From a virus (lineage: Duplodnaviria; Heunggongvirae; Uroviricota; Caudoviricetes), in the IMG/VR virus record IMGVR_UViG_2609459840_000012, positions 1 to 30,027 of that record: DNA of 30,027 nucleotides; one strand, 5' to 3'. The position numbers and the translations under genes are program-made. Positions within the stretch are counted from its first letter, which is position 1, and every line of letters begins with the position of its first letter. Under the pieces are notes generated by a model. The model made no database searches, was not told the origin of the DNA, and was given only the letters and a program-made list of their open reading frames with translations. Shown here piece after piece: positions 1 through 27,031 of this stretch.

Positions 1-552
1 TCATGGCGTTAACTCCCGTAATACAGCGTCCTCGGCAGTCCGGCGACGGTAATAAACTGCGTGAGCAGAATGTTCAGATATTCCAAACTTTTCGCCAATT
101 TCCCGGAATGACAGACGGCGTGGGTAATCGGAATCACGCAGCGCACGTATAAGACGTACATCATCATCAGATATGCGCGTGCCGGGGCGTAACTCTCCGC
201 ACTTTGTTAATCCAGCACCAATCATTCCTGCCCGACATCTGACAGAATCTTTATTACGTCCGAGATATTCTCCCATTTGCTGGCAGGTCATTGTTCTGGC
301 ATTTTTTCGAATAAACTTATCTTCATCAGGTGTAAATCTTGGGTGTTTATATTTCAGTAACTCCGGGTATGAACTGCGCAATACACCAGTCCGGTTATAT
401 ACAGCCCAGACAGTTCTTTTTATTCTGGCAGCAATATCCTTAACCGGGGTGGATGAATAAAGCGCAATCAGCAGCGCATCTTCTTCAGGTGTCCACGGAC
501 GGACATGAGCGGGGGCGCGACCTTTTCGCCCCATGGGTTGTAAAATCATCAT
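1..552 (-). CDS. Putative DNA-binding regulator of the Mu-like early operon (183 aa); possibly Mor-like
   Basis: Complete ORF (stop at 1-3), ATG at 552 directly after the upstream stop. Two N-terminal repeats of a W/F-TPE(D)ED...IA...R motif resembling GcrA/Myb-type helix-turn-helix, and a C-terminal segment (LSFREIGEKFGIS...AVYYRR) resembling sigma region 4 / Mor-C family HTH. Function inferred from motifs only. Confidence 0.5.
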   Translation of the reverse strand: MMILQPMGRKGRAPAHVRPWTPEEDALLIALYSSTPVKDIAARIKRTVWAVYNRTGVLRSSYPELLKYKHPRFTPDEDKFIRKNARTMTCQQMGEYLGRNKDSVRCRAGMIGAGLTKCGELRPGTRISDDDVRLIRALRDSDYPRRLSFREIGEKFGISEHSAHAVYYRRRTAEDAVLRELTP

Positions 553-1604: not shown

Positions 1605-1749
1605 GATTTATTTCCCCACCACATTATTAATGACGATATAAACGTATTTCATATTTCTTAACCCTTATTTTCTGTTTTCAGGCGCAAGCAGTCCCCTGAC
1701 GCGAGCGCCATAATTAAAATGAAGTGATATTTAATTGATTAATGCGGTG

Positions 1750-2280
1750 TTATTTATTCAGTCCGGCGTCCTGTTCAAAAGGCTCGACATAAAAACTTTC
1801 AGCGCCTTTATTCACCTTGATACCGGCAATGCCTTTCACAGCATCCGGCTCCGCCAGGACGGCTTCCTTGTTCACTTCCTCTTTCGTGCGGATGAAACGC
1901 TCAAGCCCCATACGGCGCAGCATTTCAATCACACCTTCCACATCACGGCTGACGCTGCATGATGGCGTTCCCAGCCGCCATGACACCGTTCCGGTGGTCA
2001 GATTGGCTGTTTTGGTTTTGCCGCCGTTCGTCAGCTCATCACGGTTGGTTTTGCACCAGTCCTGAATCCCTTTAAAAAGCACTTTGATTTGCTTTTTAAG
2101 ATTTTCAATCTGCGGCGTATAACGGGCGGTGATTTCTGCCACTTCGTCATTCATCGCCGTTTCCAGGCGCAGCGCCTCTCGCTGAATATCTCCCAGGGTG
2201 CGGATATCACGGCTGACTTCTTCCCGGGTCTGCGGTGCCGCCTCGGCTGCGGCCTTTAATTTTGTAACGCGTTTAGCCAT
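1750..2280 (-). CDS. gam: Gam-like host-nuclease inhibitor (Mu Gam family, 176 aa)
   Basis: Translation carries the motif NRDELTNGGKTKTANLTTGTVSWR and overall collinearity with Mu Gam as I recall it; AAGGA Shine-Dalgarno upstream of ATG at 2280. Confidence 0.85.
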   Translation of the reverse strand: MAKRVTKLKAAAEAAPQTREEVSRDIRTLGDIQREALRLETAMNDEVAEITARYTPQIENLKKQIKVLFKGIQDWCKTNRDELTNGGKTKTANLTTGTVSWRLGTPSCSVSRDVEGVIEMLRRMGLERFIRTKEEVNKEAVLAEPDAVKGIAGIKVNKGAESFYVEPFEQDAGLNK

Positions 2281-2291
2281 TTTGTTTTTCC

Positions 2292-2585
2292 TTATTGCAG
2301 TGTGCCTGATGCTTTATGCACGCGGTGGCGTTTAATGATGGCATCCGCTCCAAAAGACTGTGCAGATGCCTGAAATTCCGCTGAGAGAAACTGAATAATT
2401 GCAGGACTGTGATACTGGAGAATACTTGCATAAACGTCACAGAGTGACGTCGGCCTGTTATCCGTATCACGTTCTGTTTTCACATCCACTCCAATCTTTT
2501 CATGCACTTCAACACAGTCATTGCCTGCCAACTTTTCGTCATGCGAAACATGATTAAATTCAAAAATAACGCGTACTTTGCTCAT
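2292..2585 (-). CDS. Small early protein (97 aa), paralog-like N-terminus MSKVRVIFEF
   Basis: ATG at 2585 with CAGGGG Shine-Dalgarno; N-terminal 11 residues nearly identical to the adjacent upstream gene. The track's longer ORF start at 2612 is rejected for lack of a ribosome-binding site. Confidence 0.5.
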   Translation of the reverse strand: MSKVRVIFEFNHVSHDEKLAGNDCVEVHEKIGVDVKTERDTDNRPTSLCDVYASILQYHSPAIIQFLSAEFQASAQSFGADAIIKRHRVHKASGTLQ

Positions 2586-2589
2586 GGAA

Positions 2590-2862
2590 TTACCCCTGTT
2601 GATTAAATTCATTACCGTTAATAACCCCGGAAGCCATGCCTCTGTCTTTCATGAATGCACTGGCTTTCATTGCCACAAACTCTGCGAAGTTTCTGCTTTC
2701 TGCCAGCATAACCACCCCAAAAATCATGGCGGGTCCATTATCTTTCTTCTTTATTCCGGTTGAACGTATATCCAGACTTACCCCTCTGCGCGTGCTGCCA
2801 TCAGAGTTTTTATAGATAACATCTTCCTTATATTCGAAAATAATGCGTACGACTTTACTCAT
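2590..2862 (-). CDS. Small early protein (90 aa), N-terminus MSKVVRIIFEY
   Basis: ATG at 2862 preceded by GAGG; shares its N-terminal motif with the 2292-2585 gene. Confidence 0.5.
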   Translation of the reverse strand: MSKVVRIIFEYKEDVIYKNSDGSTRRGVSLDIRSTGIKKKDNGPAMIFGVVMLAESRNFAEFVAMKASAFMKDRGMASGVINGNEFNQQG

Positions 2863-3140
2863 CCTCTGGTCCTCGTTCTGTTTGGATAACTGACCCGGCG
2901 TCTAACCTCACGGCAGAACCGAATCATGGCATTAAAGGCTTCTTCCTCCGTCACCGCTTCCGGTATCCCCGGAACCAGTAACTGCTCCTGTTCATCACGT
3001 CCATGACGCGCCATAACCTCAATCACATGCCGTACCGTGGCAGGCTTTCCGGCAACTATCGGCAATGCACCTTCCGGCAGGACGTAACCAAACTCAATAA
3101 GACCACTCGACCACGCCCATGCAATGAGATTTTTTTTCAC
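2859..3140 (-). CDS. Small early protein (93 aa)
   Basis: GTG start at 3140 with strong GGGAGGTG Shine-Dalgarno; start overlaps the upstream stop (TGAGGTG). Confidence 0.45.
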   Translation of the reverse strand: MKKNLIAWAWSSGLIEFGYVLPEGALPIVAGKPATVRHVIEVMARHGRDEQEQLLVPGIPEAVTEEEAFNAMIRFCREVRRRVSYPNRTRTRG

Positions 3141-3141
3141 C

Positions 3142-3396
3142 TCACACCTCCCAGTAAACCGTGCAGCCGCTGATGCGGGTGGCCTTCACACGGCGGCGCA
3201 GGCCGTTGGTCTGTATGGTGATTTCAATTTCACCGGTTCCCTGCACGTTGCCTACCGGCGGCGTGGTTTTCAGTGCAAAACGTTGTGGGTAGCGCTTACT
3301 GCGTTCCAGTACCGCACCGGCAAGTTCGGTCAGACGGCGCGCGCTGTTCAGGGAGTCGAATAAATTCATTTTGTTACCGCAGGATTGCATATTCAT
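3142..3396 (-). CDS. Small early protein (84 aa)
   Basis: ORF 3142-3408; the second ATG (3396) is preferred because GAGGTG lies 5 nt upstream, while the first ATG has no ribosome-binding site. Confidence 0.4.
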   Translation of the reverse strand: MNMQSCGNKMNLFDSLNSARRLTELAGAVLERSKRYPQRFALKTTPPVGNVQGTGEIEITIQTNGLRRRVKATRISGCTVYWEV

Positions 3397-3408
3397 ATAA
3401 CACCTCAT

Positions 3409-3630
3409 TTAGCTGATTCGTTTTGCACCGATAAAACGACAAATATTGCTGTAAGCTTCTGTCGCACCTTCACGATCAAGTCCGGCAGATATCACCATTC
3501 TGGTGCGGTCATTAAATTCAAAAAGTAAATCGCCACATTCTTTATTTTCGGCCAATGAAATCACCTTCACGTTATCGAAATTCACCAGGTGAAAGCGTCC
3601 GTAAATATCAGGAATATTAAATGCAATCAT
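3409..3630 (-). CDS. Small early protein (73 aa) in the position of Mu kil
   Basis: ATG at 3630 with AGGTG Shine-Dalgarno, immediately after the B stop; size and position match Mu kil, but no sequence similarity is claimed. Confidence 0.45.
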   Translation of the reverse strand: MIAFNIPDIYGRFHLVNFDNVKVISLAENKECGDLLFEFNDRTRMVISAGLDREGATEAYSNICRFIGAKRIS

Positions 3631-3632
3631 AA

Positions 3633-4565
3633 TCACACCTGTGAGAGTAATTCAGGGTTGGTATAAACCTCTTTAAAGGCCGCATTAATATGTTTTTCTG
3701 TCAGCGCCGCGCCTTCACCGCTGGCGGTGAGCCACGCCTGGTTAAGCGTATGTGTCAGAACGCGTAACGCTCCCGGCTTTTCAGCGATAGCCTGCATGAC
3801 GGCCAGCTCGGCCTCACCACTGATCCCCCACGCCATGGCAATGGCCAGCACATCCGCCTTTTTGGCCTTGCGAAGTTGTTTTGTACGGGCAAGACGGCTG
3901 AACAGGCGCGATAAATCATCAAAGGCGCGGCGTCCACCCTTAAACAATCCGCGCGGGTTACCAATAAGCACCATCCCGATCCCCGTGGCGTCCTGAATTG
4001 CCCGGAGTTGCTCCAGACCGTCAATACCAAGATGATCCGCCTCATCCACAATCACCAGTCCACGCGTTCCCATCAGGCGACGGCGGATGGCGCGGGATAA
4101 TGCCCCTTTGTTCGCGCGGGTGTAATCAATCCCCAGCGCATCGGCCAGCTCCAGCAGACACTCCGTGACGCTGGAGTGCGCGGGTGACAGGGTGATCATC
4201 CAGGTGTTTGGTTGCTCCTGGCAGTAATTACGGGCGGTGGCCGTTTTACCCACCCCGGGCACGCCCACTATGACGTTAATACAGCCCATCAGGCGGACCG
4301 CCTGAAACAGCGCGCGCAGCTCCTGGACTGTCTGCGTTTCCACAAACTGCGGCGGCTCGGGCAGTGCGCTTTGTTTATTCCAGTTCTCATACCAGGAACG
4401 CAGGGAAGCAGCCACAGCAGCGTTATCGCCTTTATATTTTCCCTTACGGAAAGCCGATAATGTGCCGTCGGAAATTCCCGCCTCTCTGGCGATGGCATAC
4501 TGCGTCAGTACGCCGCCATCAATAAGTTCATCAATGGTCTTGATTACATCGTTAATATCAGTCAT
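3633..4565 (-). CDS. Mu B-like transposition ATPase / target DNA activator (310 aa)
   Basis: Walker A GVPGVGKT, Walker B VIVDEADHL, N-terminal HTH, and overall collinearity with Mu B (PEPPxFVETQTV, KKADV..IA.AW, KPGALR). Confidence 0.9.
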   Translation of the reverse strand: MTDINDVIKTIDELIDGGVLTQYAIAREAGISDGTLSAFRKGKYKGDNAAVAASLRSWYENWNKQSALPEPPQFVETQTVQELRALFQAVRLMGCINVIVGVPGVGKTATARNYCQEQPNTWMITLSPAHSSVTECLLELADALGIDYTRANKGALSRAIRRRLMGTRGLVIVDEADHLGIDGLEQLRAIQDATGIGMVLIGNPRGLFKGGRRAFDDLSRLFSRLARTKQLRKAKKADVLAIAMAWGISGEAELAVMQAIAEKPGALRVLTHTLNQAWLTASGEGAALTEKHINAAFKEVYTNPELLSQV

Positions 4566-4636
4566 ATTATTAACCTCTCATTTGATACCTTGTTTAATCA
4601 AATAACCTGAGTCGCCGCTCGGGTTATTTTTTTATT

Positions 4637-6724
4637 TCAGGCCAGCGGGTCATTTTCTTTTAATTTCGCTTCCAGCAACTGCAATCCCCGCTGGAAATTA
4701 CGCTCGTATTCTTCATCAGGTTCATCGTCAGCGACCGGTTGCTGAACGGTCACCGTATTACCCACAGGGCGGTATATGTTTTCCAGCCAGGGCTCCTGCG
4801 GCTTGTGCTCCAGCACGTTGACAACCTCATCCTCGGCATCACGGATTTTTTCCTCTGCGCGTTTACGCATGCCTTTAAGGCGCTGCTGCTGTTTGTAGTA
4901 TTCCGCGCTGACAGGGAAGGCTTCGCGTTTATTGCCGTCCCATACCGCCTCGCAAATCACGCTGCCATCCGGGCGGCGCACGGTAATTCGTTCGGCATCA
5001 TGAATGTCATAGCTGATAAGTACCTTACGGCCATGCTCGTCACGCAGCTCGGGCGCGTAGTAAATATTATTCAGCCAGCGTATTTCACAGCGTCTTACAG
5101 GGCGCTCCACCATCGGCCGGAACATATCCCGCAGTTCAACATCGGACAGCCATTCAATTTCCGTGTCCTCTTCCGCCAGGCGTTTTTTTCTGAACTCCGC
5201 CGGGCTGTAATGTTTACCGTTCGGCTTCATGGGTAATTCATCGTGCGGCCGGTTGTTGTACCACTCAACACCGTCACGAATGGCATCAATCAGTTCAGAC
5301 CAGGACGGTAAATCACGCATCGCTGACTGCTGCCGGGCGTTCAGCCGTTTGCCCTGTTGCAGGGCACTGAATGCCGAGCGTAAATCGCGGTTGGTTTTAC
5401 GTAACGTCTCGCGATCTGCTCCTTTCCCGAAATAGGTGCGGTATTTACGGGCTATGCGCATCGGTAATGTGCGGTTAAGCCGTTCGATAATGCCCCGTCC
5501 CTGCGGATTACCGGCAATCCCTGTCGGGTGATTAATCCCCAGTCGTGGCAGTATCCCCACAATCTCCTTATCCAGGACGTCGGCGGTTTCCCCGGAGCCA
5601 TTATCCGAGTAATACAGAAACGGTTTGCCATGATGGCGAATACCGTGCTGTATGGCACCGGCTACGGCGAAAACATTTTCAGCCAGGTCAAGGCTCCAGC
5701 CCACCACAAAGCGCGTGCCACCGTCGATAACAAAGGTCACTTCCGGTGCGAATGGCCGCCCGTGAACCGGGTGCGCGCATTTCAGCTTCATGCCGTGACC
5801 GTCACCAATCCAGACATAATTCACCGGCATTTTTGACCAGTCGCGGCGCGTGAATCCCTCAAGCTGGCGGTATTCACTGCCGGTAACCCGTCCTTTTTGT
5901 TTCACCACTTCCGGCAGTTTCTTCATTGCGCGGCGAATGGTGTCATAAGACGGCATGATATCGAGCATATAAGGCTCATCAGCGTGCCGGTGCTGCCATT
6001 CGGCAACAAAATCCTCGTAAGCCTCGGTCATTGGTCGGCCGTTTGACTGGCGATACTGCGCCAGAAATTCGGGCAACCAGTTAATATCTTCGGCTTTTAT
6101 TTCCTGGCGTTTACCTGGTGCCAGCAAAAGCAGGCGTTCAGCAGCGTTCTGTGCCTTATTAAAGGCCGCAATCCAGCGTTTCAGCGTGATTTCACTCAAC
6201 ACGCGACTGTTTCCCTTTCTGGCGTTCGCTATCTCAACCATTGCCACAATGCGCTCATCCAGTTGCGAGTGTGACAGGCGGTCAACGATGAACCGGATAG
6301 CTTTAGCGCAGCTGAAACCGGGTTGTTGCGTGAATTTCAGCACCTCACTGACGATCGCAATGCGTGCGTCTGCCACCTGGCGCTGGTTTTCAGTCAGGGC
6401 ATTGAGGCGTTCGACCATCAGTTGTGGTGATCCGCGATATGCCTCCACCGCATCAACCACGGCAGACGAGCGTCTGGCCTTTGTCACCACCGGAGCCGGT
6501 GATTCATCGGCTTTTTGCGTCATCAGTTGCAGGGCATAACGTTCGCGTAATGCCTGCTGTGTCACTTCAGGTAAACAGTCAATGCTGTATTCAAAACCTT
6601 TAGCGCCTTTCTTGCGGCGTCTGCTGGTTTCGCTGGTTGCATACTTCCTGATTGAATAGCGAACGCCTTGCTCCGTTCCCGGCATCCCCGGTAATCCAAC
6701 CAGTTCTTTGACTGAAGCAAACAT
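4637..6724 (-). CDS. Mu A-like DDE transposase (695 aa)
   Basis: Size, position between ner and B, N-terminal DNA-binding region, a central region with acidic residues consistent with a DDE catalytic core, and an acidic C-terminus; gene order ner-A-B is Mu-typical. Confidence 0.9.
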   Translation of the reverse strand: MFASVKELVGLPGMPGTEQGVRYSIRKYATSETSRRRKKGAKGFEYSIDCLPEVTQQALRERYALQLMTQKADESPAPVVTKARRSSAVVDAVEAYRGSPQLMVERLNALTENQRQVADARIAIVSEVLKFTQQPGFSCAKAIRFIVDRLSHSQLDERIVAMVEIANARKGNSRVLSEITLKRWIAAFNKAQNAAERLLLLAPGKRQEIKAEDINWLPEFLAQYRQSNGRPMTEAYEDFVAEWQHRHADEPYMLDIMPSYDTIRRAMKKLPEVVKQKGRVTGSEYRQLEGFTRRDWSKMPVNYVWIGDGHGMKLKCAHPVHGRPFAPEVTFVIDGGTRFVVGWSLDLAENVFAVAGAIQHGIRHHGKPFLYYSDNGSGETADVLDKEIVGILPRLGINHPTGIAGNPQGRGIIERLNRTLPMRIARKYRTYFGKGADRETLRKTNRDLRSAFSALQQGKRLNARQQSAMRDLPSWSELIDAIRDGVEWYNNRPHDELPMKPNGKHYSPAEFRKKRLAEEDTEIEWLSDVELRDMFRPMVERPVRRCEIRWLNNIYYAPELRDEHGRKVLISYDIHDAERITVRRPDGSVICEAVWDGNKREAFPVSAEYYKQQQRLKGMRKRAEEKIRDAEDEVVNVLEHKPQEPWLENIYRPVGNTVTVQQPVADDEPDEEYERNFQRGLQLLEAKLKENDPLA

Positions 6725-6726
6725 AA

Positions 6727-6957
6727 TTACGCGACCTTACGAATGTAGCGGCTGGGCCAAATCTCCTCGGGCGGCACCCCCAGGCATTCCGCGATAATCC
6801 CCTCATACTTGGGAACATGGCGGTATACCGCGTTGTACAGATTGTTCTGACCCACGCCAGCTTTACGGGCCAGCGCCCTCATGCTTCCTTCTCTGGCTCT
6901 GACTTCCCCCAAAATTCTTTGAGGATGCCAATCAGGCTTAACTTCATTTCTCGCCAT
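6727..6957 (-). CDS. ner: Ner-like DNA-binding regulator (76 aa)
   Basis: Translation MARNEVKPDWH...EIWPSRY matches the Mu Ner / Nlp family signature (DWH near the N-terminus, IWPSRY near the C-terminus). Stop lies 2 nt from the A start. Confidence 0.85.
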   Translation of the reverse strand: MARNEVKPDWHPQRILGEVRAREGSMRALARKAGVGQNNLYNAVYRHVPKYEGIIAECLGVPPEEIWPSRYIRKVA

Positions 6958-7141: not shown

Positions 7142-7687
7142 ATGAACAAGCAAACAACAACATCTCTTTCTTTTCCTGGTGGTAGAAAAGAAAGCATTGC
7201 TGAGCGTCTGAAAAGGCTGATTGGCTCCCGCAGCGTCAGAGCTGCAGCAAGAGATTGGGGGCTTTCATTTTCAACACTAAACAATTATCTGTCTCGTGGC
7301 ACTGAGCCATCCTTAAGTGTCGCCCTTCAGATTGCGTCTATCGAAGGAGTAAGTGTTGAGTGGCTATGTGGATTCAGTGATGCATCACAAGTGAATCGGT
7401 GTGAGATCAAGGAAAATCAAGATGAAAGCAAGAAGATAATTATGACGATTATCAGCGCACTTGATGAAAAAGACTTAGAGCAGCTATCGAAAAATTTGGT
7501 TCTGAATGGAGCCAAGTACTTAGCTCGGTTGTTAGAGCCTGAAAATCAAGATCTAATCCGCTTAGAAGGAAGGAAAAGAATAGCTGCATTACAGCTTGAA
7601 GGTATGTCTGACGAACGCGTCAGAGAGATTTTGGAAGAAACTGAGAGAAGTCGCAAATCTAACGCGGTAGAACCAAAAGCGGGTTAA
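7142..7687 (+). CDS. Transposable-phage repressor c-like protein (181 aa)
   Basis: N-terminal CI-type HTH (SIAERLKRL...AAARDWGLSFSTLNNYL); C-terminal segment (LEGMSDERVREIL) resembles the Mu c C-terminal region; divergent from ner as in Mu; AGGAAG Shine-Dalgarno. Confidence 0.8.
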   Translation: MNKQTTTSLSFPGGRKESIAERLKRLIGSRSVRAAARDWGLSFSTLNNYLSRGTEPSLSVALQIASIEGVSVEWLCGFSDASQVNRCEIKENQDESKKIIMTIISALDEKDLEQLSKNLVLNGAKYLARLLEPENQDLIRLEGRKRIAALQLEGMSDERVREILEETERSRKSNAVEPKAG

Positions 7688-7761
7688 TAGCATTAGCCCG
7701 CATTTTGCACTATATCGAGTATTTCGCATTGTTTGGAACGCCTTAAAAGACTAAAACCACA

Positions 7762-7773
7762 GTATCAAATGAG
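7762..7773 (+). repeat. Mu A-type end-binding-site-like repeat (L3 position)
   Basis: GTATCAAATGAG; the reverse complement CTCATTTGATAC resembles the Mu att consensus core TTCAYTNNAARYRCGAAA. Confidence 0.5.
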
Positions 7774-7811
7774 TTGCCGATTTTATAATAAATGACTAAT
7801 TATTGCACAAT

Positions 7812-7824
7812 CGGTATCAAATAG
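7812..7824 (+). repeat. Mu A-type end-binding-site-like repeat (L2 position)
   Basis: CGGTATCAAATAG; same core as the copies at 7762 and 7907. Confidence 0.5.
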
Positions 7825-7906
7825 ACCTTATCCGCACATCTAGCCATCACCTGTTTTATTTCAGTATCTTACAGGTGATTTCACCTCCTTTCACTAAAAC
7901 CCTTGT

Positions 7907-7923
7907 CGGTATCAAATGATTCA
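7907..7923 (+). repeat. Terminal Mu A-type binding-site-like repeat (L1 position) with candidate terminus CA at 7922-7923
   Basis: CGGTATCAAATGATTCA; read inward from the end this is 5'-TGAAT-CATTTGATACCG, compared with Mu 5'-TGTAT-TGATTCACTTGAAGTACG. Confidence 0.5.
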
Positions 7924-23641: not shown

Positions 23642-26600
23642 ATGGGCAAAGGTGGCGGCAGGGCGCACACACCGCGTGAGGCGAAAGACAATCTCAAATC
23701 CACGCAGATGATGAGCGTGATTGATGCGATTGGTGAGGGACCGATAGAAGGCCCGGTGAAAGGCCTGCAGAGTATTCTGGTGAACAAAACCCCGCTGACG
23801 GACACGGACGGTAATCCCGTGATACACGGTGTGACCGCGGTCTGGCGTGCCGGGGAGCAGGAGCAGACACCACCGGAAGGCTTTGAGTCCTCCGGCTCTG
23901 AAACTGTACTGGGTGTCGAAGTGACCAGGGCAAAACCGGTAACACGCACCATTACGTCAGCGAACATTGACCGCCTGCGGGTGACCTTCGGGGTGCAGTC
24001 ACTGGTGGAGACCACGTCAAAGGGTGACCGTAATCCGTCCTCTGTCCGTCTGCTGATTCAGTTACAGCGTAACGGTAACTGGGTGACAGAAAAGGATGTC
24101 ACCATTAACGGCAAGACCACCTCACAGTTCCTGGCCTCGGTGATTCTGGATAATCTGCCGCCCCGGCCCTTTAACATCCGGATGGTCAGGGAGACGGCGG
24201 ACAGCACCACGGACCAGCTGCAGAACAGAACGCTGTGGTCGTCATACACCGAAATCATCGATGTGAAACAGAGCTACCCGAACACGGCCATTGTGGGGCT
24301 GCAGGTGGATGCGGAGCAGTTCGGTGGCCAGCAGATGACGGTGAACTACCATATCCGCGGTCGCATCATCCAGGTGCCGTCAAACTACGACCCGGAAAAA
24401 CGCACTTACAGCGGTATCTGGGACGGCAGTCTGAAACCGGCATACAGCAACAATCCGGCCTGGTGCCTGTGGGACATGCTGACTCACCCGCGCTACGGCA
24501 TGGGAAAACGTCTGGGGGCGGCGGATGTGGACAAGTGGGCGCTGTATGCCATCGGGCAGTACTGTGACCAGCGTGTCCCGGATGGCTTCGGAGGGACAGA
24601 GCCGCGGATGACGTTTAATGCGTACCTGTCACAGCAGCGTAAGGCATGGGATGTGCTCTGCGATTTCTGCTCGGCGATGCGCTGTATGCCGGTATGGAAC
24701 GGCCAGACGCTGACGTTCGTTCAGGACCGCCCGTCGGATGTGGTGTGGCCGTACACCAACAGCGATGTGGTGGTGGATGATAACGGCGTGGGGTTCCGCT
24801 ACAGCTTCAGTGCCCTGAAGGACCGGCACACGGCGGTGGAGGTGAATTACACCGACCCGCAGAACGGCTGGCAGACCTCCACGGAACTGGTGGAAGACCC
24901 TGAAGCCATACTGCGCTACGGACGCAACCTGCTGAAGATGGATGCGTTCGGCTGTACCAGCCGCGGTCAGGCCCACCGTGCCGGGCTGTGGGTGATAAAG
25001 ACCGGACTGCTGGAAACGCAGACGGTGGATTTCACGCTCGGGTCACAGGGGCTGCGGCACACGCCCGGTGACATCATTGAAATCTGTGATAACGACTATG
25101 CCGGGACCCTGACCGGCGGACGTATCCTGTCCATTGATGCCGCCAGCCGCACCCTGACACTGGACCGTGAGGTGACGCTTCCGCAGACCGGTACCGCCAC
25201 GGTGAACCTGATTAACGGCAGCGGTAAGCCGGTGAGTGTGGACATCACGGCACAACCGGCCCCTGCCCGGATACAGGTCAGTGCCCTGCCTGATGGCGTG
25301 GCGACATACGGTGTGTGGGGACTCTCCCTGCCGTCACTGCGCCGTCGCCTGTTCCGCTGTGTCGCCATCCGGGAAAACACGGACGGCACCTTTGCCATCA
25401 CGGCGGTGCAGCACGTACCGGAAAAAGAAGCCATCGTGGATAACGGGGCCAGCTTTGAGCCGCAGTCAGGCACCCTGAACAGCGTTATCCCTCCGGCAGT
25501 GCAGCACCTCACGGTGGAGGTGAGTGCCTCAGACGGCCAGTATCTGGCGCAGGCGAAATGGGACACGCCGCGGGTGGTGAAAGGTGTGAGCTTCAGTCTG
25601 CGTCTGACCAGCGGAAGGGGGGATGACAGCCGCCTGGTGACCACCGCCATCACCGCAGACACGGCGCACCGTTTCAGTGGTCTGCCGCCCGGGGAATACA
25701 CCCTGACGGTCAGGGCGATTAACAGCTATGGCCAGCAGGGCGAACCTGCCACCACCACGTTCCGGATTGACGCCCCGGCAGCGCCTGCCACCATTGAACT
25801 GATACCGGGGTATTTTCAGATAACGGCGGTCCCGAAACTGGCTGTATATGACCCGACGGTACAGTTTGAATTCTGGTTTTCGGAACAGCAGATTGCGGAT
25901 ATCAGGCAGGTTGAAACCTCCGCCCGCTATCTTGGCACGGCGCTGTACTGGATAGCTGCCAGTATCAATATCAAACCGGGCCATGATTATTACTTTTATA
26001 TCCGCAGTGTGAACACCGTTGGCAAATCGGCATTTGTGGAGGCCGTCGGCCGGGCTAGCGATGATGCCGAAGGCTACCTGAATTTTTACAAAGAGCTGAT
26101 TAATAAAACACATCTCGGTAAAGAGCTGCTGGAAAACGCTGAACTGACGGAAGATAACGCCAGCAGACTGGAGGCGTTTTCGAAAGAGTGGAAAGACGCT
26201 AACGATAAATGGAATGCCATGTGGGGCGTCAGAATTGAGCAGACCGAAGACGGTAAGCATTATGTCGCGGGGCTTGGCCTCAGCATGGAGGACACGGAGG
26301 ACGGTAAACTGAGCCAGTTTCTGGTTGCCGCTAACCGTATCGCGTTTATTGACCCGGCAAACGGGAATGAAACGCCGATGTTTGTGGCGCAGGGCAATCA
26401 GATATTCATGAACGACGTGTTCCTGAAATACCTGACGGCTCCGACCATTACCAGCGGCGGTAATCCTCCGGCATTTTCCCTGACACCGGATGGGCGGCTG
26501 ACGGCGAAAAATGCCGATATCAGCGGTAACGTGAATGCGAACTCCGGGACGCTCAACAACGTCACGATTAACGAGAACTGTCGGGTTCTGGGAAAACTGT

Positions 26601-27031
26601 CCGCGAACCAGATTGAAGGCGATCTCGTTAAAACAGTGGGCAAAGCTTTCCCCCGGGACTCCCGTGCACCGGAACGGTGGCCATCAGGGACCATTACCGT
26701 CAGGGTTTATGACGATCAGCCGTTTGACCGGCAGATTGTTATTCCTGCGGTGGCATTCAGCGGCGCTAAACATGAGAGAGAGCATACTGATATTTACTCC
26801 TCATGCCGTCTGATAGTGCGGAAAAACGGTGCTGAAATTTATAACCGTACCGCGCTGGATAATACGCTGATTTACAGTGGCGTTATTGATATGCCTGCCG
26901 GTCACGGTCACATGACGCTGGAGTTTTCGGTGTCAGCATGGCTGGTAAATGACTGGTATCCCACAGCAAGTATCAGCGATTTGCTGGTTGTGGTGATGAA
27001 GAAAGCCACCGCAGGCATCAGTATCAGCTGA
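23642..27031 (+). CDS. Host specificity / central tail fibre protein, lambda J-like (1129 aa)
   Basis: Length and collinearity with lambda gpJ; C-terminus ...[14 protein letters not shown] resembles the lambda J receptor-binding end as recalled. Confidence 0.9.

What the first reader, a model, noticed from the sequence alone, without database searches (positions are those of the whole stretch)
2292..3630. Five small early genes between B and gam, two with a shared N-terminus: candidate host-takeover or anti-defence cluster
Tightly coupled ORFs of 73-97 aa with good ribosome-binding sites fill the region corresponding to the Mu semi-essential early region. The genes at 2292-2585 and 2590-2862 both start MSKV(V)R(V/I)IFE and then diverge completely, suggesting duplication and diversification. 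I cannot place any of them in a known family from sequence alone, and the cluster ends at gam, a known anti-RecBCD gene, which is why counter-defence or host-manipulation roles are worth testing.
Basis: inference. Interest (0 to 1): 0.6.

Follow-up and report, generated by a model that had tools for sequence, protein, structure and literature searches.

The report
Small early accessory genes, Mu-like prophage
These are five real, co-transcribed small genes in the semi-essential early region of a Mu-like E. coli prophage: one is a Kil host-killing homologue, one belongs to a widespread, mislabelled phage family, and three are fast-evolving orphans including a paralogue pair; nothing ties them to anti-defence, so the region is ordinary.

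Summary
Five tightly packed minus-strand ORFs (73-97 aa) fill the gap between MuB (3633-4565) and Gam (1750-2280). All are intact in more than 200 E. coli genomes and under purifying selection (dN/dS 0.10-0.42).

The claim that none can be placed in a family is wrong.
- Gene 2 (3142-3396) is a Mu Kil-family protein (PF26843, phrog_2679).
- Gene 3 (2859-3140) belongs to a family of at least 546 clusters, found mostly in early operons of transposable phages. Its "host nuclease inhibitor" label comes from a 1-nt frameshift in the D3112 record that fuses gam to the next gene.
- Genes 4 and 5 are true paralogues. Profile-profile similarity covers about 65 columns, not only the N-terminus. A divergent relative has gene 5 but not gene 4.

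Genes 1, 4 and 5 are AT-rich (39-44% GC against 52-56%), polymorphic and lineage-restricted. Kil and gene 3 are core-like.

The interval is a mosaic of swappable cassettes: gene 3, gene 4 or kil is missing in some copies, and a Mu E7-like gene is inserted in others.

I found no link to any known anti-defence family, so host takeover is supported only through Kil. This is a new member of a known kind, of modest interest.

The parts
3409..3630 (-). w1: 73-aa soluble orphan protein, first gene after B (an alternative GTG start at 3636 gives 75 aa). Family phrog_3375.
   Evidence: ORF and SD (AGGTG, 5 nt). phrog_3375 at E 1e-43. No Pfam, NCBIfam or PADLOC hit. dN/dS 0.26. GC 39% against 52-56% for core genes. 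18 natural variants. A 41%-identical homologue occupies the same position in the divergent Mu-like locus L134. Weak hit of the family profile to the PolD DP1 OB region, 6knb_A, E 4e-4, single hit only.
3142..3396 (-). w2: Kil-family protein, 84 aa, basic (pI 10.3). The longest ORF reading runs to 3408.
   Evidence: phrog_2679 at E 8e-46 and a cross-hit to Mu Kil's phrog_2743. Mu Kil reciprocally hits phrog_2679 at 9e-5. blastp to Mu Kil gives 33% over the C-terminal 39 aa, E 1e-4; shuffle z = 8.7; hhalign P 5.5e-5. The exact protein carries a precomputed PF26843 Kil_protein hit. PGAP names it 'Kil protein family'. dN/dS 0.18. GC 56%.
2859..3140 (-). w3: 93-aa member of a large uncharacterised family of phage early proteins (DMS3-12 / JBD69 gp14 / phrog_1518), mislabelled 'host nuclease inhibitor'.
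2590..2862 (-). w4: 90-aa orphan (phrog_4107), paralogue of w5. Its start overlaps the w3 stop by 4 nt.
   Evidence: phrog_4107 at E 2e-54. Homologues found only in E. coli. hhalign to the w5 family gives 86.5%, P 4.6e-6, 65 columns. dN/dS 0.30. GC 42%. 20 variants. Absent from the divergent relative L134 and from L092.
2292..2585 (-). w5: 97-aa orphan (phrog_2230), paralogue of w4 and the most variable gene of the block. It has two allele classes about 60% identical.
   Evidence: phrog_2230 at E 2e-38. Mu E6 hits phrog_2230 only weakly, E 0.009. dN/dS 0.42 and two allele classes while gam stays 94-99% identical. 23 variants. A 27%-identical homologue lies immediately upstream of gam in L134, E 7e-7. 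The AF2 model is low confidence (pLDDT 57) and was used only for its secondary structure, a beta-hairpin plus two helices.
3633..4565 (-). Upstream flank: MuB-like AAA+ transposition protein. Its stop is 2 nt from the w1 start.
   Evidence: PF09077 at 8e-25 and PF13401. 48% identity to Mu B.
1750..2280 (-). Downstream flank: Gam (Mu Gam-like DNA-end-binding protein), 11 nt after w5.
   Evidence: PF07352 at 5.5e-42. 57% identity to Mu Gam.

Best explanation
[quoted passage not shown] Its five small genes are translationally coupled. They are most likely transcribed with ner-A-B from the early promoter, so they would be made immediately on induction or infection. They encode small, soluble, single-domain proteins. 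I infer that they act by binding host or phage proteins, and that they are individually dispensable.

They fall into two classes.

(i) Core-like genes with phage-typical GC:
- w2 is a Kil homologue. By homology it is predicted to kill the host and block cell elongation, giving spherical cells.
- w3 belongs to a very widespread family found in early operons, mostly of transposable phages. It is conserved across Escherichia, Pseudomonas and Burkholderia phages. That breadth suggests it acts on a conserved host component or on the phage's own DNA transactions.

(ii) AT-rich, polymorphic, lineage-restricted cassettes:
- w1.
- The paralogue pair w4/w5. Its invariant N-terminal strand (MSKV.R.IFE) probably forms a common structural or docking element, and the rest of the protein has diversified. 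A duplication of a w5-like ancestor most likely produced w4.

Shown here: gene reality, operon packing, family memberships, paralogy, and cassette polymorphism. Inferred: co-transcription, Kil activity, the protein-binding mode, and the direction of the duplication.
For: Synteny with Mu: ner, A, B, five small genes, gam, gp11, gp12.

Packing and ribosome-binding sites, with no excess of internal promoters or terminators.

Purifying selection on all five genes.

Kil membership. Mu kil gives spherical cells and is unrelated to lambda or Rac kil (PMC3961180). Deleting the Mu SE region restores viability after MuBam infection (PMC3325207).

w3 family breadth and context. It has 546 clusters. It lies in early operons next to B, Gam, GemA or Mor in most contexts examined (L134-L138, L140, D3112/DMS3/JBD69), with exceptions L139 (an integrase-type temperate phage) and the podovirus BcepMigl.

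Two classes by GC, by variant number and by dN/dS.

w4/w5 paralogy, with controls. L134 has w1, Kil, w3 and w5 homologues but no w4.

Natural deletion and insertion variants among 35 related loci with both B and gam, 32 of them with both flanks complete. Of those 32: 20 have the same gene order as the window, 6 carry an E7-like insertion with w3 reduced to a fragment, 3 have w3 as a fragment only, 1 lacks kil, 1 lacks w3 and w4, and 1 has a fragmentary w5 match.

None of the proteins has a TM segment.
Against: No function was shown for any of the five. Kil homology to the characterised Mu protein is remote (33% over 39 residues) and the position differs (second gene after B, not first). No transcription data were available. 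The fold was confidently predicted only for w3. The w5 model is poor, and w1 and w4 were not modelled. High polymorphism and low GC in w1, w4 and w5 fit an arms-race (counter-defence) role equally well. The protein-binding mode is inferred from small size and the absence of enzymatic motifs only.
Confidence: 0.72

Rival explanations
1. One or more of the orphans (w1, w4, w5) would inhibit host anti-phage systems such as restriction, RecBCD-linked or abortive-infection systems. The w4/w5 duplication would then reflect diversification against different defence targets.
For: Early expression position next to gam. w1, w4 and w5 are AT-rich, lineage-restricted and highly polymorphic. w5 has two 60%-identical allele classes inside otherwise 94-99% identical flanks. 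The cassettes are individually dispensable. These are typical traits of phage accessory or anti-defence genes.
Against: No similarity to any known anti-defence family in Pfam, PHROGs or NCBIfam, and no PDB match. None is an acidic DNA mimic. dN/dS stays below 1 for all of them. Adjacency to gam is just conserved Mu gene order. The only 'nuclease inhibitor' annotation in the block, on w3, is an artefact. No dedicated anti-defence database or experiment was available.
Confidence: 0.18
2. The small proteins modulate the phage's own programme rather than the host. They would correspond to the genetically defined but unassigned Mu SEE functions: cim (control of immunity), arm (amplified replication) and sot. 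For example, they could tune transposition or replication, repressor activity or DNA-end handling. In that picture w3 would work together with Gam.
For: [quoted passage not shown] The GenBank Mu record equates kil with cim. w3 homologues lie immediately next to gam in DMS3, D3112, L015, L032 and L137/L138, and right after B in L135. w3 is strongly conserved (dN/dS 0.10) across hosts as different as Pseudomonas and E. coli.
Against: w3 was found in only 4 of 42 Gam-containing loci sampled. It is reduced to a fragment or absent in about a third of E. coli relatives that keep gam. It also occurs in phages of other types (BcepMigl, L139). Mu itself lacks w1, w3, w4 and w5, so they cannot be the classical cim, arm or sot genes.
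Confidence: 0.15
3. Some of the five are not functional genes. They would be chance ORFs or decaying remnants kept only by linkage.
For: Three have no detectable homologues outside close relatives. w3, w4 and kil are each missing in some copies. Frameshifted or fused variants exist in databases (P0031, P0050, P0059).
Against: All five are intact in 9 diverged copies with dN/dS 0.10-0.42 at pS 0.07-0.33. They have good SDs and operon packing. w1, kil, w3 and w5 homologues persist at 27-66% identity in the divergent relative L134, in the same order.
Confidence: 0.02

Closest known systems
Semi-essential early (SEE/SE) region of bacteriophage Mu (kil, E5, E6, E7, E8 between B and gam)
   Same: Same position, strand and number of genes (five) between B and gam. 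Small, tightly packed genes on the early operon. Contains a Kil homologue. Some relatives carry an E7-like 139-aa gene in the same interval. Non-essential accessory character.
   Different: Only kil is clearly shared with Mu, and here it is the second gene after B rather than the first. w1, w3, w4 and w5 have no significant match to Mu E5-E8. Mu E8's family (phrog_323) sits elsewhere in this phage, at 1-552.
Mu Kil (gp5; PF26843 Kil_protein, phrog_2743/2679)
   Same: Pfam and PHROG membership. Basic ~75-85-aa protein. Conserved C-terminal motif R-[IL]-x-G-C-x-[VI]-x-W. Lies on the early operon downstream of B.
   Different: Only about 33% identity, limited to the C-terminal half. Different PHROG subfamily. 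Preceded by an extra gene (w1). The PHROG description 'septation inhibition' is borrowed from the unrelated lambda Kil; Mu Kil is reported to cause spherical cells (PMC3961180). Activity was not tested here.
DMS3-12 / JBD69 gp14 / C-terminal part of the annotated D3112 'Gam' (phrog_1518)
   Same: 43-50% identity to w3 over about 75 residues. Same size. Early operon of transposable phages. Shared motifs W-x-SGLIEFG, P-x-GA, ARH, LLVPG-x-PEA.
   Different: In Pseudomonas phages the gene lies downstream of gam; here it lies two genes upstream. No experimental function is known. The 'host nuclease inhibitor' name comes from a 1-nt deletion in the D3112 record that fuses gam with this gene.
MbtH-like proteins (NRPS adenylation-domain partners)
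   Different: 9-14% identity. No MbtH Pfam hit. No Foldseek hit. No NRPS context. The extra C-terminal helix in w3 is absent from the match. This is resemblance of a small fold only.
Mu E6 (gp7, phrog_10252)
   Same: Similar size, N-terminal M-[AS]-K-V-x-[IV]-I-x-E strand, and a similar predicted pattern of strands followed by a long helix. Mu E6 hits w5's phrog_2230 at E 0.009. w4 vs E6 is co-linear over 66 columns.
   Different: Not significant: hhalign P 0.044 (w4) and 0.65 (w5), and jackhmmer does not connect them. Treat as an untested lead.

Membership tests
Mu Kil family (PF26843 / phrog_2679) - for w2 | Significant match to the family HMM | tested here: met
   phrog_2679 at E 7.8e-46. 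Precomputed PF26843 hit on the exact 84-aa protein. PGAP 'Kil protein family'. The local Pfam copy lacks this model.
Mu Kil family (PF26843 / phrog_2679) - for w2 | Detectable homology to the characterised Mu Kil protein | tested here: met
   blastp 33% over 39 aa, E 1e-4. Reciprocal PHROG cross-hits. Shuffle z 8.7. hhalign P 5.5e-5 against a background of P >= 0.009.
Mu Kil family (PF26843 / phrog_2679) - for w2 | Host killing with spherical cells on expression | not testable with these tools
   The phenotype is known for Mu kil only (PMC3961180).
Gam / 'host nuclease inhibitor' - for w3 | Sequence membership in Phage_Mu_Gam (PF07352) | tested here: not met
   No Pfam hit for w3 or for 10 family members. 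No BLAST similarity to Gam.
Gam / 'host nuclease inhibitor' - for w3 | The label rests on evidence for this protein | tested here: not met
   D3112 'gam' (266 aa) differs from DMS3 by a 1-nt deletion in a 99.3% identical alignment. The deletion destroys the conserved Gam C-terminus and reads into the next gene. DMS3 and JBD69 have two separate genes.
MbtH-like fold - for w3 | Fold match plus family signature and NRPS context | tested here: inconclusive
w4/w5 paralogue family | Profile-profile similarity above that of unrelated neighbours | tested here: met
   hhalign 86.5%, P 4.6e-6, 65 columns. The 34 control pairs give <= 4.6% and P >= 0.009. An earlier run gave 82% and 1e-5. Smith-Waterman shuffle p 0.003. 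jackhmmer does not link the two families.
w4/w5 paralogue family | Same three-dimensional fold | not tested
   Only w5 was modelled, at low confidence (pLDDT 57).
Mu E6 (gp7) family - for w4/w5 | Significant sequence or profile similarity | tested here: inconclusive
   E6 vs phrog_2230 at E 0.009. hhalign P 0.044 (w4) and 0.65 (w5). Shuffle p 0.04 and 0.54.
Mu semi-essential early region | Located between B and gam on the early strand of a Mu-like element, packed as an operon | tested here: met
Mu semi-essential early region | Genes dispensable for phage propagation | tested here: inconclusive
   Natural copies lack w3, w3+w4 or kil, but the viability of those prophages is unknown.
Known anti-defence proteins (Ocr/ArdA-type mimics, Acr, anti-RM and similar) | Match to a described anti-defence family, or a strongly acidic DNA-mimic composition | tested here: not met
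   No Pfam or NCBIfam hit and no such PHROG annotation. pI 5.7-10.3. No dedicated anti-defence library was available.
Known anti-defence proteins (Ocr/ArdA-type mimics, Acr, anti-RM and similar) | Relief of a defence system in vivo | not testable with these tools
   Needs plating assays.

The most novel reading that the evidence does not exclude
w4 and w5, and perhaps w1, would be members of a diversifying family of early phage effectors. An invariant N-terminal beta-strand (MSKV.R.IFE) would serve as a common docking or oligomerisation module. The variable remainder would set specificity for different host targets such as strain-specific defence proteins. The two 60%-identical w5 allele classes and the w4 duplication would then be footprints of an arms race. 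Mu E6 and similar 'M-A/S-K/R-V' proteins in other transposable phages (for example the 65-aa protein of L135) would be distant members of the same superfamily.
Probability: 0.12. Interest if true: 0.6.

Novelty: new member of a known kind. Interest (0 to 1): 0.3.

Why it matters
The Mu SEE region is a long-known block of unassigned early genes, and this locus is the version carried by hundreds of E. coli genomes, including O157:H7 strains. The analysis yields four practical points.

1. One gene is a Kil homologue, so the prophage probably carries a host-killing, cell-shape function.
2. The 'host nuclease inhibitor' name given to w3-like proteins in many phage and bacterial records is an annotation error that propagated from one frameshifted record. 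It should not be used to infer anti-RecBCD activity.
3. The w3 family (at least 546 clusters, no hit to any Pfam model, confident novel-looking small fold) is a well-defined target for functional work on transposable phages.
4. The AT-rich, polymorphic trio w1, w4 and w5 are the sensible candidates if someone wants to screen this prophage for host-interaction or counter-defence functions.

None of this changes current understanding of phage biology.

Tried and rejected
- Pfam, NCBIfam and PADLOC scans of all five gave no hits.
- PDB sequence searches for w3 (single sequence and profile), w4, w5 and kil gave nothing significant. ClpB/ClpC hits at E 0.07-1.4 were judged spurious.
- Word-indexed homologue searches for w4, w5 and w3 returned only close E. 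coli relatives.
- tblastn of w1, kil and w5 against 50,697 phage records found only two Stx phages carrying an inserted Mu-like element.
- IMG/VR scans with the w4 and w5 profiles returned only the same E. coli lineage.
- HMMs of w4 and w5 found nothing in 42 Gam-bearing loci from other bacteria.
- jackhmmer did not join w4, w5 and Mu E6.
- The AF2 model of w5 came out at low confidence, so I did not use it for fold search.
- Foldseek of the w3 model against BFVD and PDB gave nothing. The AFDB50 library was unavailable.
- A 'Rosetta-stone' reading of the D3112 Gam-w3 fusion was considered and rejected as a frameshift artefact.
- Longer w3-family members with extra N- or C-terminal regions have no Pfam domains that could hint at function.
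- Literature searches for the RefSeq accessions and for anti-defence work on Mu-like early genes found nothing.
- The Rfam scan of the window was empty.
Full report
**What is there.** The window carries the left part of a Mu-like prophage, transcribed leftwards on the minus strand. In order it reads: Ner-like protein (6727-6957), MuA transposase (4637-6724), MuB (3633-4565), five small ORFs, Gam (1750-2280), and Mu gp11-like and gp12-like proteins. The five ORFs are w1 3409-3630 (73 aa), w2 3142-3396 (84 aa), w3 2859-3140 (93 aa, GTG start), w4 2590-2862 (90 aa) and w5 2292-2585 (97 aa). Each has a Shine-Dalgarno sequence. Spacers run from -4 to +12 nt. The consensus scan shows no enrichment of promoters or terminators. 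The same DNA, at more than 80% identity, occurs in 233 of 5426 complete E. coli genomes, best match 98.6%. PGAP annotates exactly these five CDS there.

**Are they genes?** I compared nine diverged copies. All five reading frames are intact. The pooled Nei-Gojobori dN/dS values are 0.26 (w1), 0.18 (w2), 0.10 (w3), 0.30 (w4) and 0.42 (w5), against 0.03 for B and 0.06 for gam. Homologues of w1 (41%), w2 (66%), w3 (52%) and w5 (27%, E 7e-7) occur in the same order in a much more divergent Mu-like element, L134, where B is 64% and Gam 76% identical.

**Comparison with Mu.** Mu also has five genes between B and gam: kil, E5, E6, E7 and E8. Only one is clearly shared.

**w2 is a Kil homologue.**
- It hits phrog_2679 at 8e-46, with a cross-hit to Mu Kil's own phrog_2743. 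Mu Kil reciprocally hits phrog_2679.
- blastp gives 33% identity over the C-terminal 39 residues, with a shared R-[IL]-x-G-C-x-[VI]-x-W motif.
- A shuffle test gives z = 8.7.
- The exact protein carries a precomputed PF26843 Kil_protein hit.
- Mu kil expression is reported to give spherical cells, and Mu kil is unrelated to lambda and Rac kil (PMC3961180). The PHROG wording 'septation inhibition' is therefore a name-based carry-over.
- Deleting the Mu SE region restores host viability after MuBam infection (PMC3325207).

**w3 and its misleading label.** w3 belongs to phrog_1518, labelled 'host nuclease inhibitor'. I traced where that label comes from.
- tblastn finds w3 relatives in 75 phage records, mostly Pseudomonas Casadabanvirus.
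- In D3112 the match lies inside a 266-aa 'gam' CDS.
- Aligning D3112 with DMS3 (99.3% identical) shows a single-base deletion in D3112. It removes the conserved Gam C-terminus (…GIEDFAIVPFEAEVQ) and reads into the next gene, which starts with its own Met.
- DMS3 and JBD69 have two separate genes.

The label is therefore an artefact, and no evidence links w3 to nuclease inhibition.

**What the w3 family looks like.**
- Size: an exhaustive HMMER search finds 546 50%-identity clusters at E <= 1e-3.
- No Pfam family hits any member tested, including longer fused forms.
- Context: seven further loci and the phage records place it mostly in early operons of transposable phages. It is often, though not always, next to gam or B. 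It also occurs in an integrase-type temperate phage and a Burkholderia podovirus.
- Structure: AlphaFold2 with an 85-sequence alignment gives a confident model (pLDDT 88, pTM 0.77). It has three strands, a helix, two short strands and a long C-terminal helix.

**w4 and w5.** The shared N-terminus is real. It is invariant in 20 and 23 natural variants and differs at synonymous sites. The similarity goes beyond the N-terminus.
- With a w5 profile that includes the L134 homologue, hhalign aligns 65 columns at 86.5% probability, P 4.6e-6.
- In an all-against-all matrix of nine families or proteins (36 pairs), only this pair and Kil/Mu-Kil stand out. The other 34 pairs have P >= 0.009.
- A Smith-Waterman shuffle test gives p = 0.003.
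- jackhmmer does not join the two families, so the relationship is old.
- L134 has w5 but not w4, and one E. coli relative also lacks w4. This fits w4 arising by duplication of a w5-like gene.
- A link to Mu E6 is suggested by a weak PHROG hit (E 0.009) and a co-linear but non-significant alignment (P 0.044). It stays open.
- The AF2 model of w5 is poor (pLDDT 57). It gives only a secondary-structure sketch of a long beta-hairpin and two helices.

**Two classes of gene.** Kil and w3 have phage-typical GC (56% and 53%), few variants (6 and 7) and low dN/dS. In contrast, w1, w4 and w5 have 39-44% GC (GC3 35-44%), 18-23 variants and higher dN/dS. w5 exists as two allele classes about 60% identical, inside flanks that stay 94-99% identical.

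**The interval is a mosaic.** I surveyed 35 related IMG/VR loci that have both B and gam; both flanks are complete in 32.

| Architecture (32 loci with complete flanks) | Loci |
|---|---|
| Same gene order as the window, all genes complete | 20 |
| Mu E7-like 139-aa gene inserted between w1 and kil, w3 reduced to a fragment | 6 |
| w3 present only as a fragment | 3 |
| kil missing, w3 a fragment | 1 |
| w3 and w4 missing | 1 |
| Same gene order, but w5 match fragmentary | 1 |

The other three loci have incomplete B or gam. Two show the window's gene order and one shows the E7-like insertion. Counting all 35, w3 is a fragment or absent in 12.

**Function.** None of the five matches a known anti-defence or defence family. 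None is a strongly acidic mimic or a membrane protein. Host takeover is supported for Kil by homology. For the others, the best-supported statement is that they are small, soluble, dispensable early accessory proteins, and I infer that they act by binding partners. The counter-defence reading stays possible for the polymorphic trio (I give it about 0.18) but has no positive evidence. A role in the phage's own programme, especially w3 working with Gam or B, is a second rival at about 0.15.

**Verdict.** This is an ordinary but real SEE-region gene block and a new member of a known kind. The useful by-products are the Kil assignment, the correction of a propagated mis-annotation, the definition of a large uncharacterised w3 family with a confident fold model, and solid support for the w4/w5 paralogy. 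Interest 0.3.

Noticed in passing
window 7142-12013 and 23642-27031: The Mu-like prophage ends just right of its repressor gene (7142-7687, phrog_3037). It abuts a 5'-truncated lambdoid small-terminase ORF (7962-8354, which matches only positions 65-162 of phrog_641). After that come TerL, a head protein and, further on, tail protein J. The Mu-like element therefore appears to be inserted into, and to disrupt, the small terminase gene of a lambdoid prophage. This fits GenBank Stx-phage records annotated 'inserted Mu-like phage'.
   Followed up: partly
window 7762-7917 (+) and 4580-4588 (-): The 9-mer GTATCAAAT occurs three times in direct orientation within 160 nt at the prophage left end, and once just upstream of the B start. 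That makes 4 matches against 0.18 expected. The left-end copies are likely transposase binding (attL) sites.
   Followed up: partly
L003 (D3112, AY394005) 3976-4776 vs L005 (DMS3) 975-1776: The D3112 'gam' CDS (266 aa) is a fusion caused by a 1-nt deletion relative to DMS3. This record seems to be the source of the 'host nuclease inhibitor' name now attached to phrog_1518 and to many RefSeq proteins.
   Followed up: yes
window 3409-3630 (w1): A profile of w1 variants hits one PDB chain, 6knb_A (archaeal PolD small subunit DP1, residues 174-228, OB-domain region). The E-value is 4e-4, and the match includes the stretch D-[RK]-EGA-x-E-x-YS-x-I. No other DP1 structure is hit, so this is only a hint of an OB-like fold.
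   Followed up: partly
L050 1705-2124 (-); L134 2361-2780: Some E. coli relatives carry an extra 139-aa gene between w1 and kil. It is a distant homologue of Mu E7 (E 6e-5) and of the 139-aa gene of L134. Where it is present, w3 is reduced to a 70-nt remnant.
   Followed up: partly
P0031 (E. coli, 67 aa): This is a natural in-frame w4-w5 fusion. It has the first 49 residues of w4 joined at 'FG' to the last 18 of w5, apparently by a deletion between short repeats.
   Followed up: no
P0070, P0091, P0092, P0116, P0131, P0176; L043 5458-6114: One w3 subfamily carries a conserved ~70-aa N-terminal extension (I-x-VRY-x-GAY-x-TN ... AA-x-RLG-x-KL-x-GP) with no Pfam match. P0070 is a tandem duplication of the w3 domain.
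   Followed up: no
window 1605-1749: The window has only a 145-nt spacer between gam and the gp11-like gene. Most relatives carry a ~180-aa gene there, annotated DUF5420 in some.
   Followed up: no
window 1-552 (-) and L001 5494-5781: Mu E8, the last gene before gam in Mu, belongs to the same PHROG (phrog_323, SANT/Myb-like regulator) as the 183-aa protein at window 1-552, which lies downstream of gp12. Homologous accessory genes thus occupy different slots in the two phages.
   Followed up: no
L135 1442-1639: A 65-aa protein (MARVVISIEP...) lies in a distant transposable-phage early operon, two genes after a w3 homologue. It shares the M-A-[KR]-V-x-I-x-I-E N-terminus with Mu E6 (hhalign P 0.009, N-terminus only). 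This may be another member of an E6/w4/w5-like group.
   Followed up: partly
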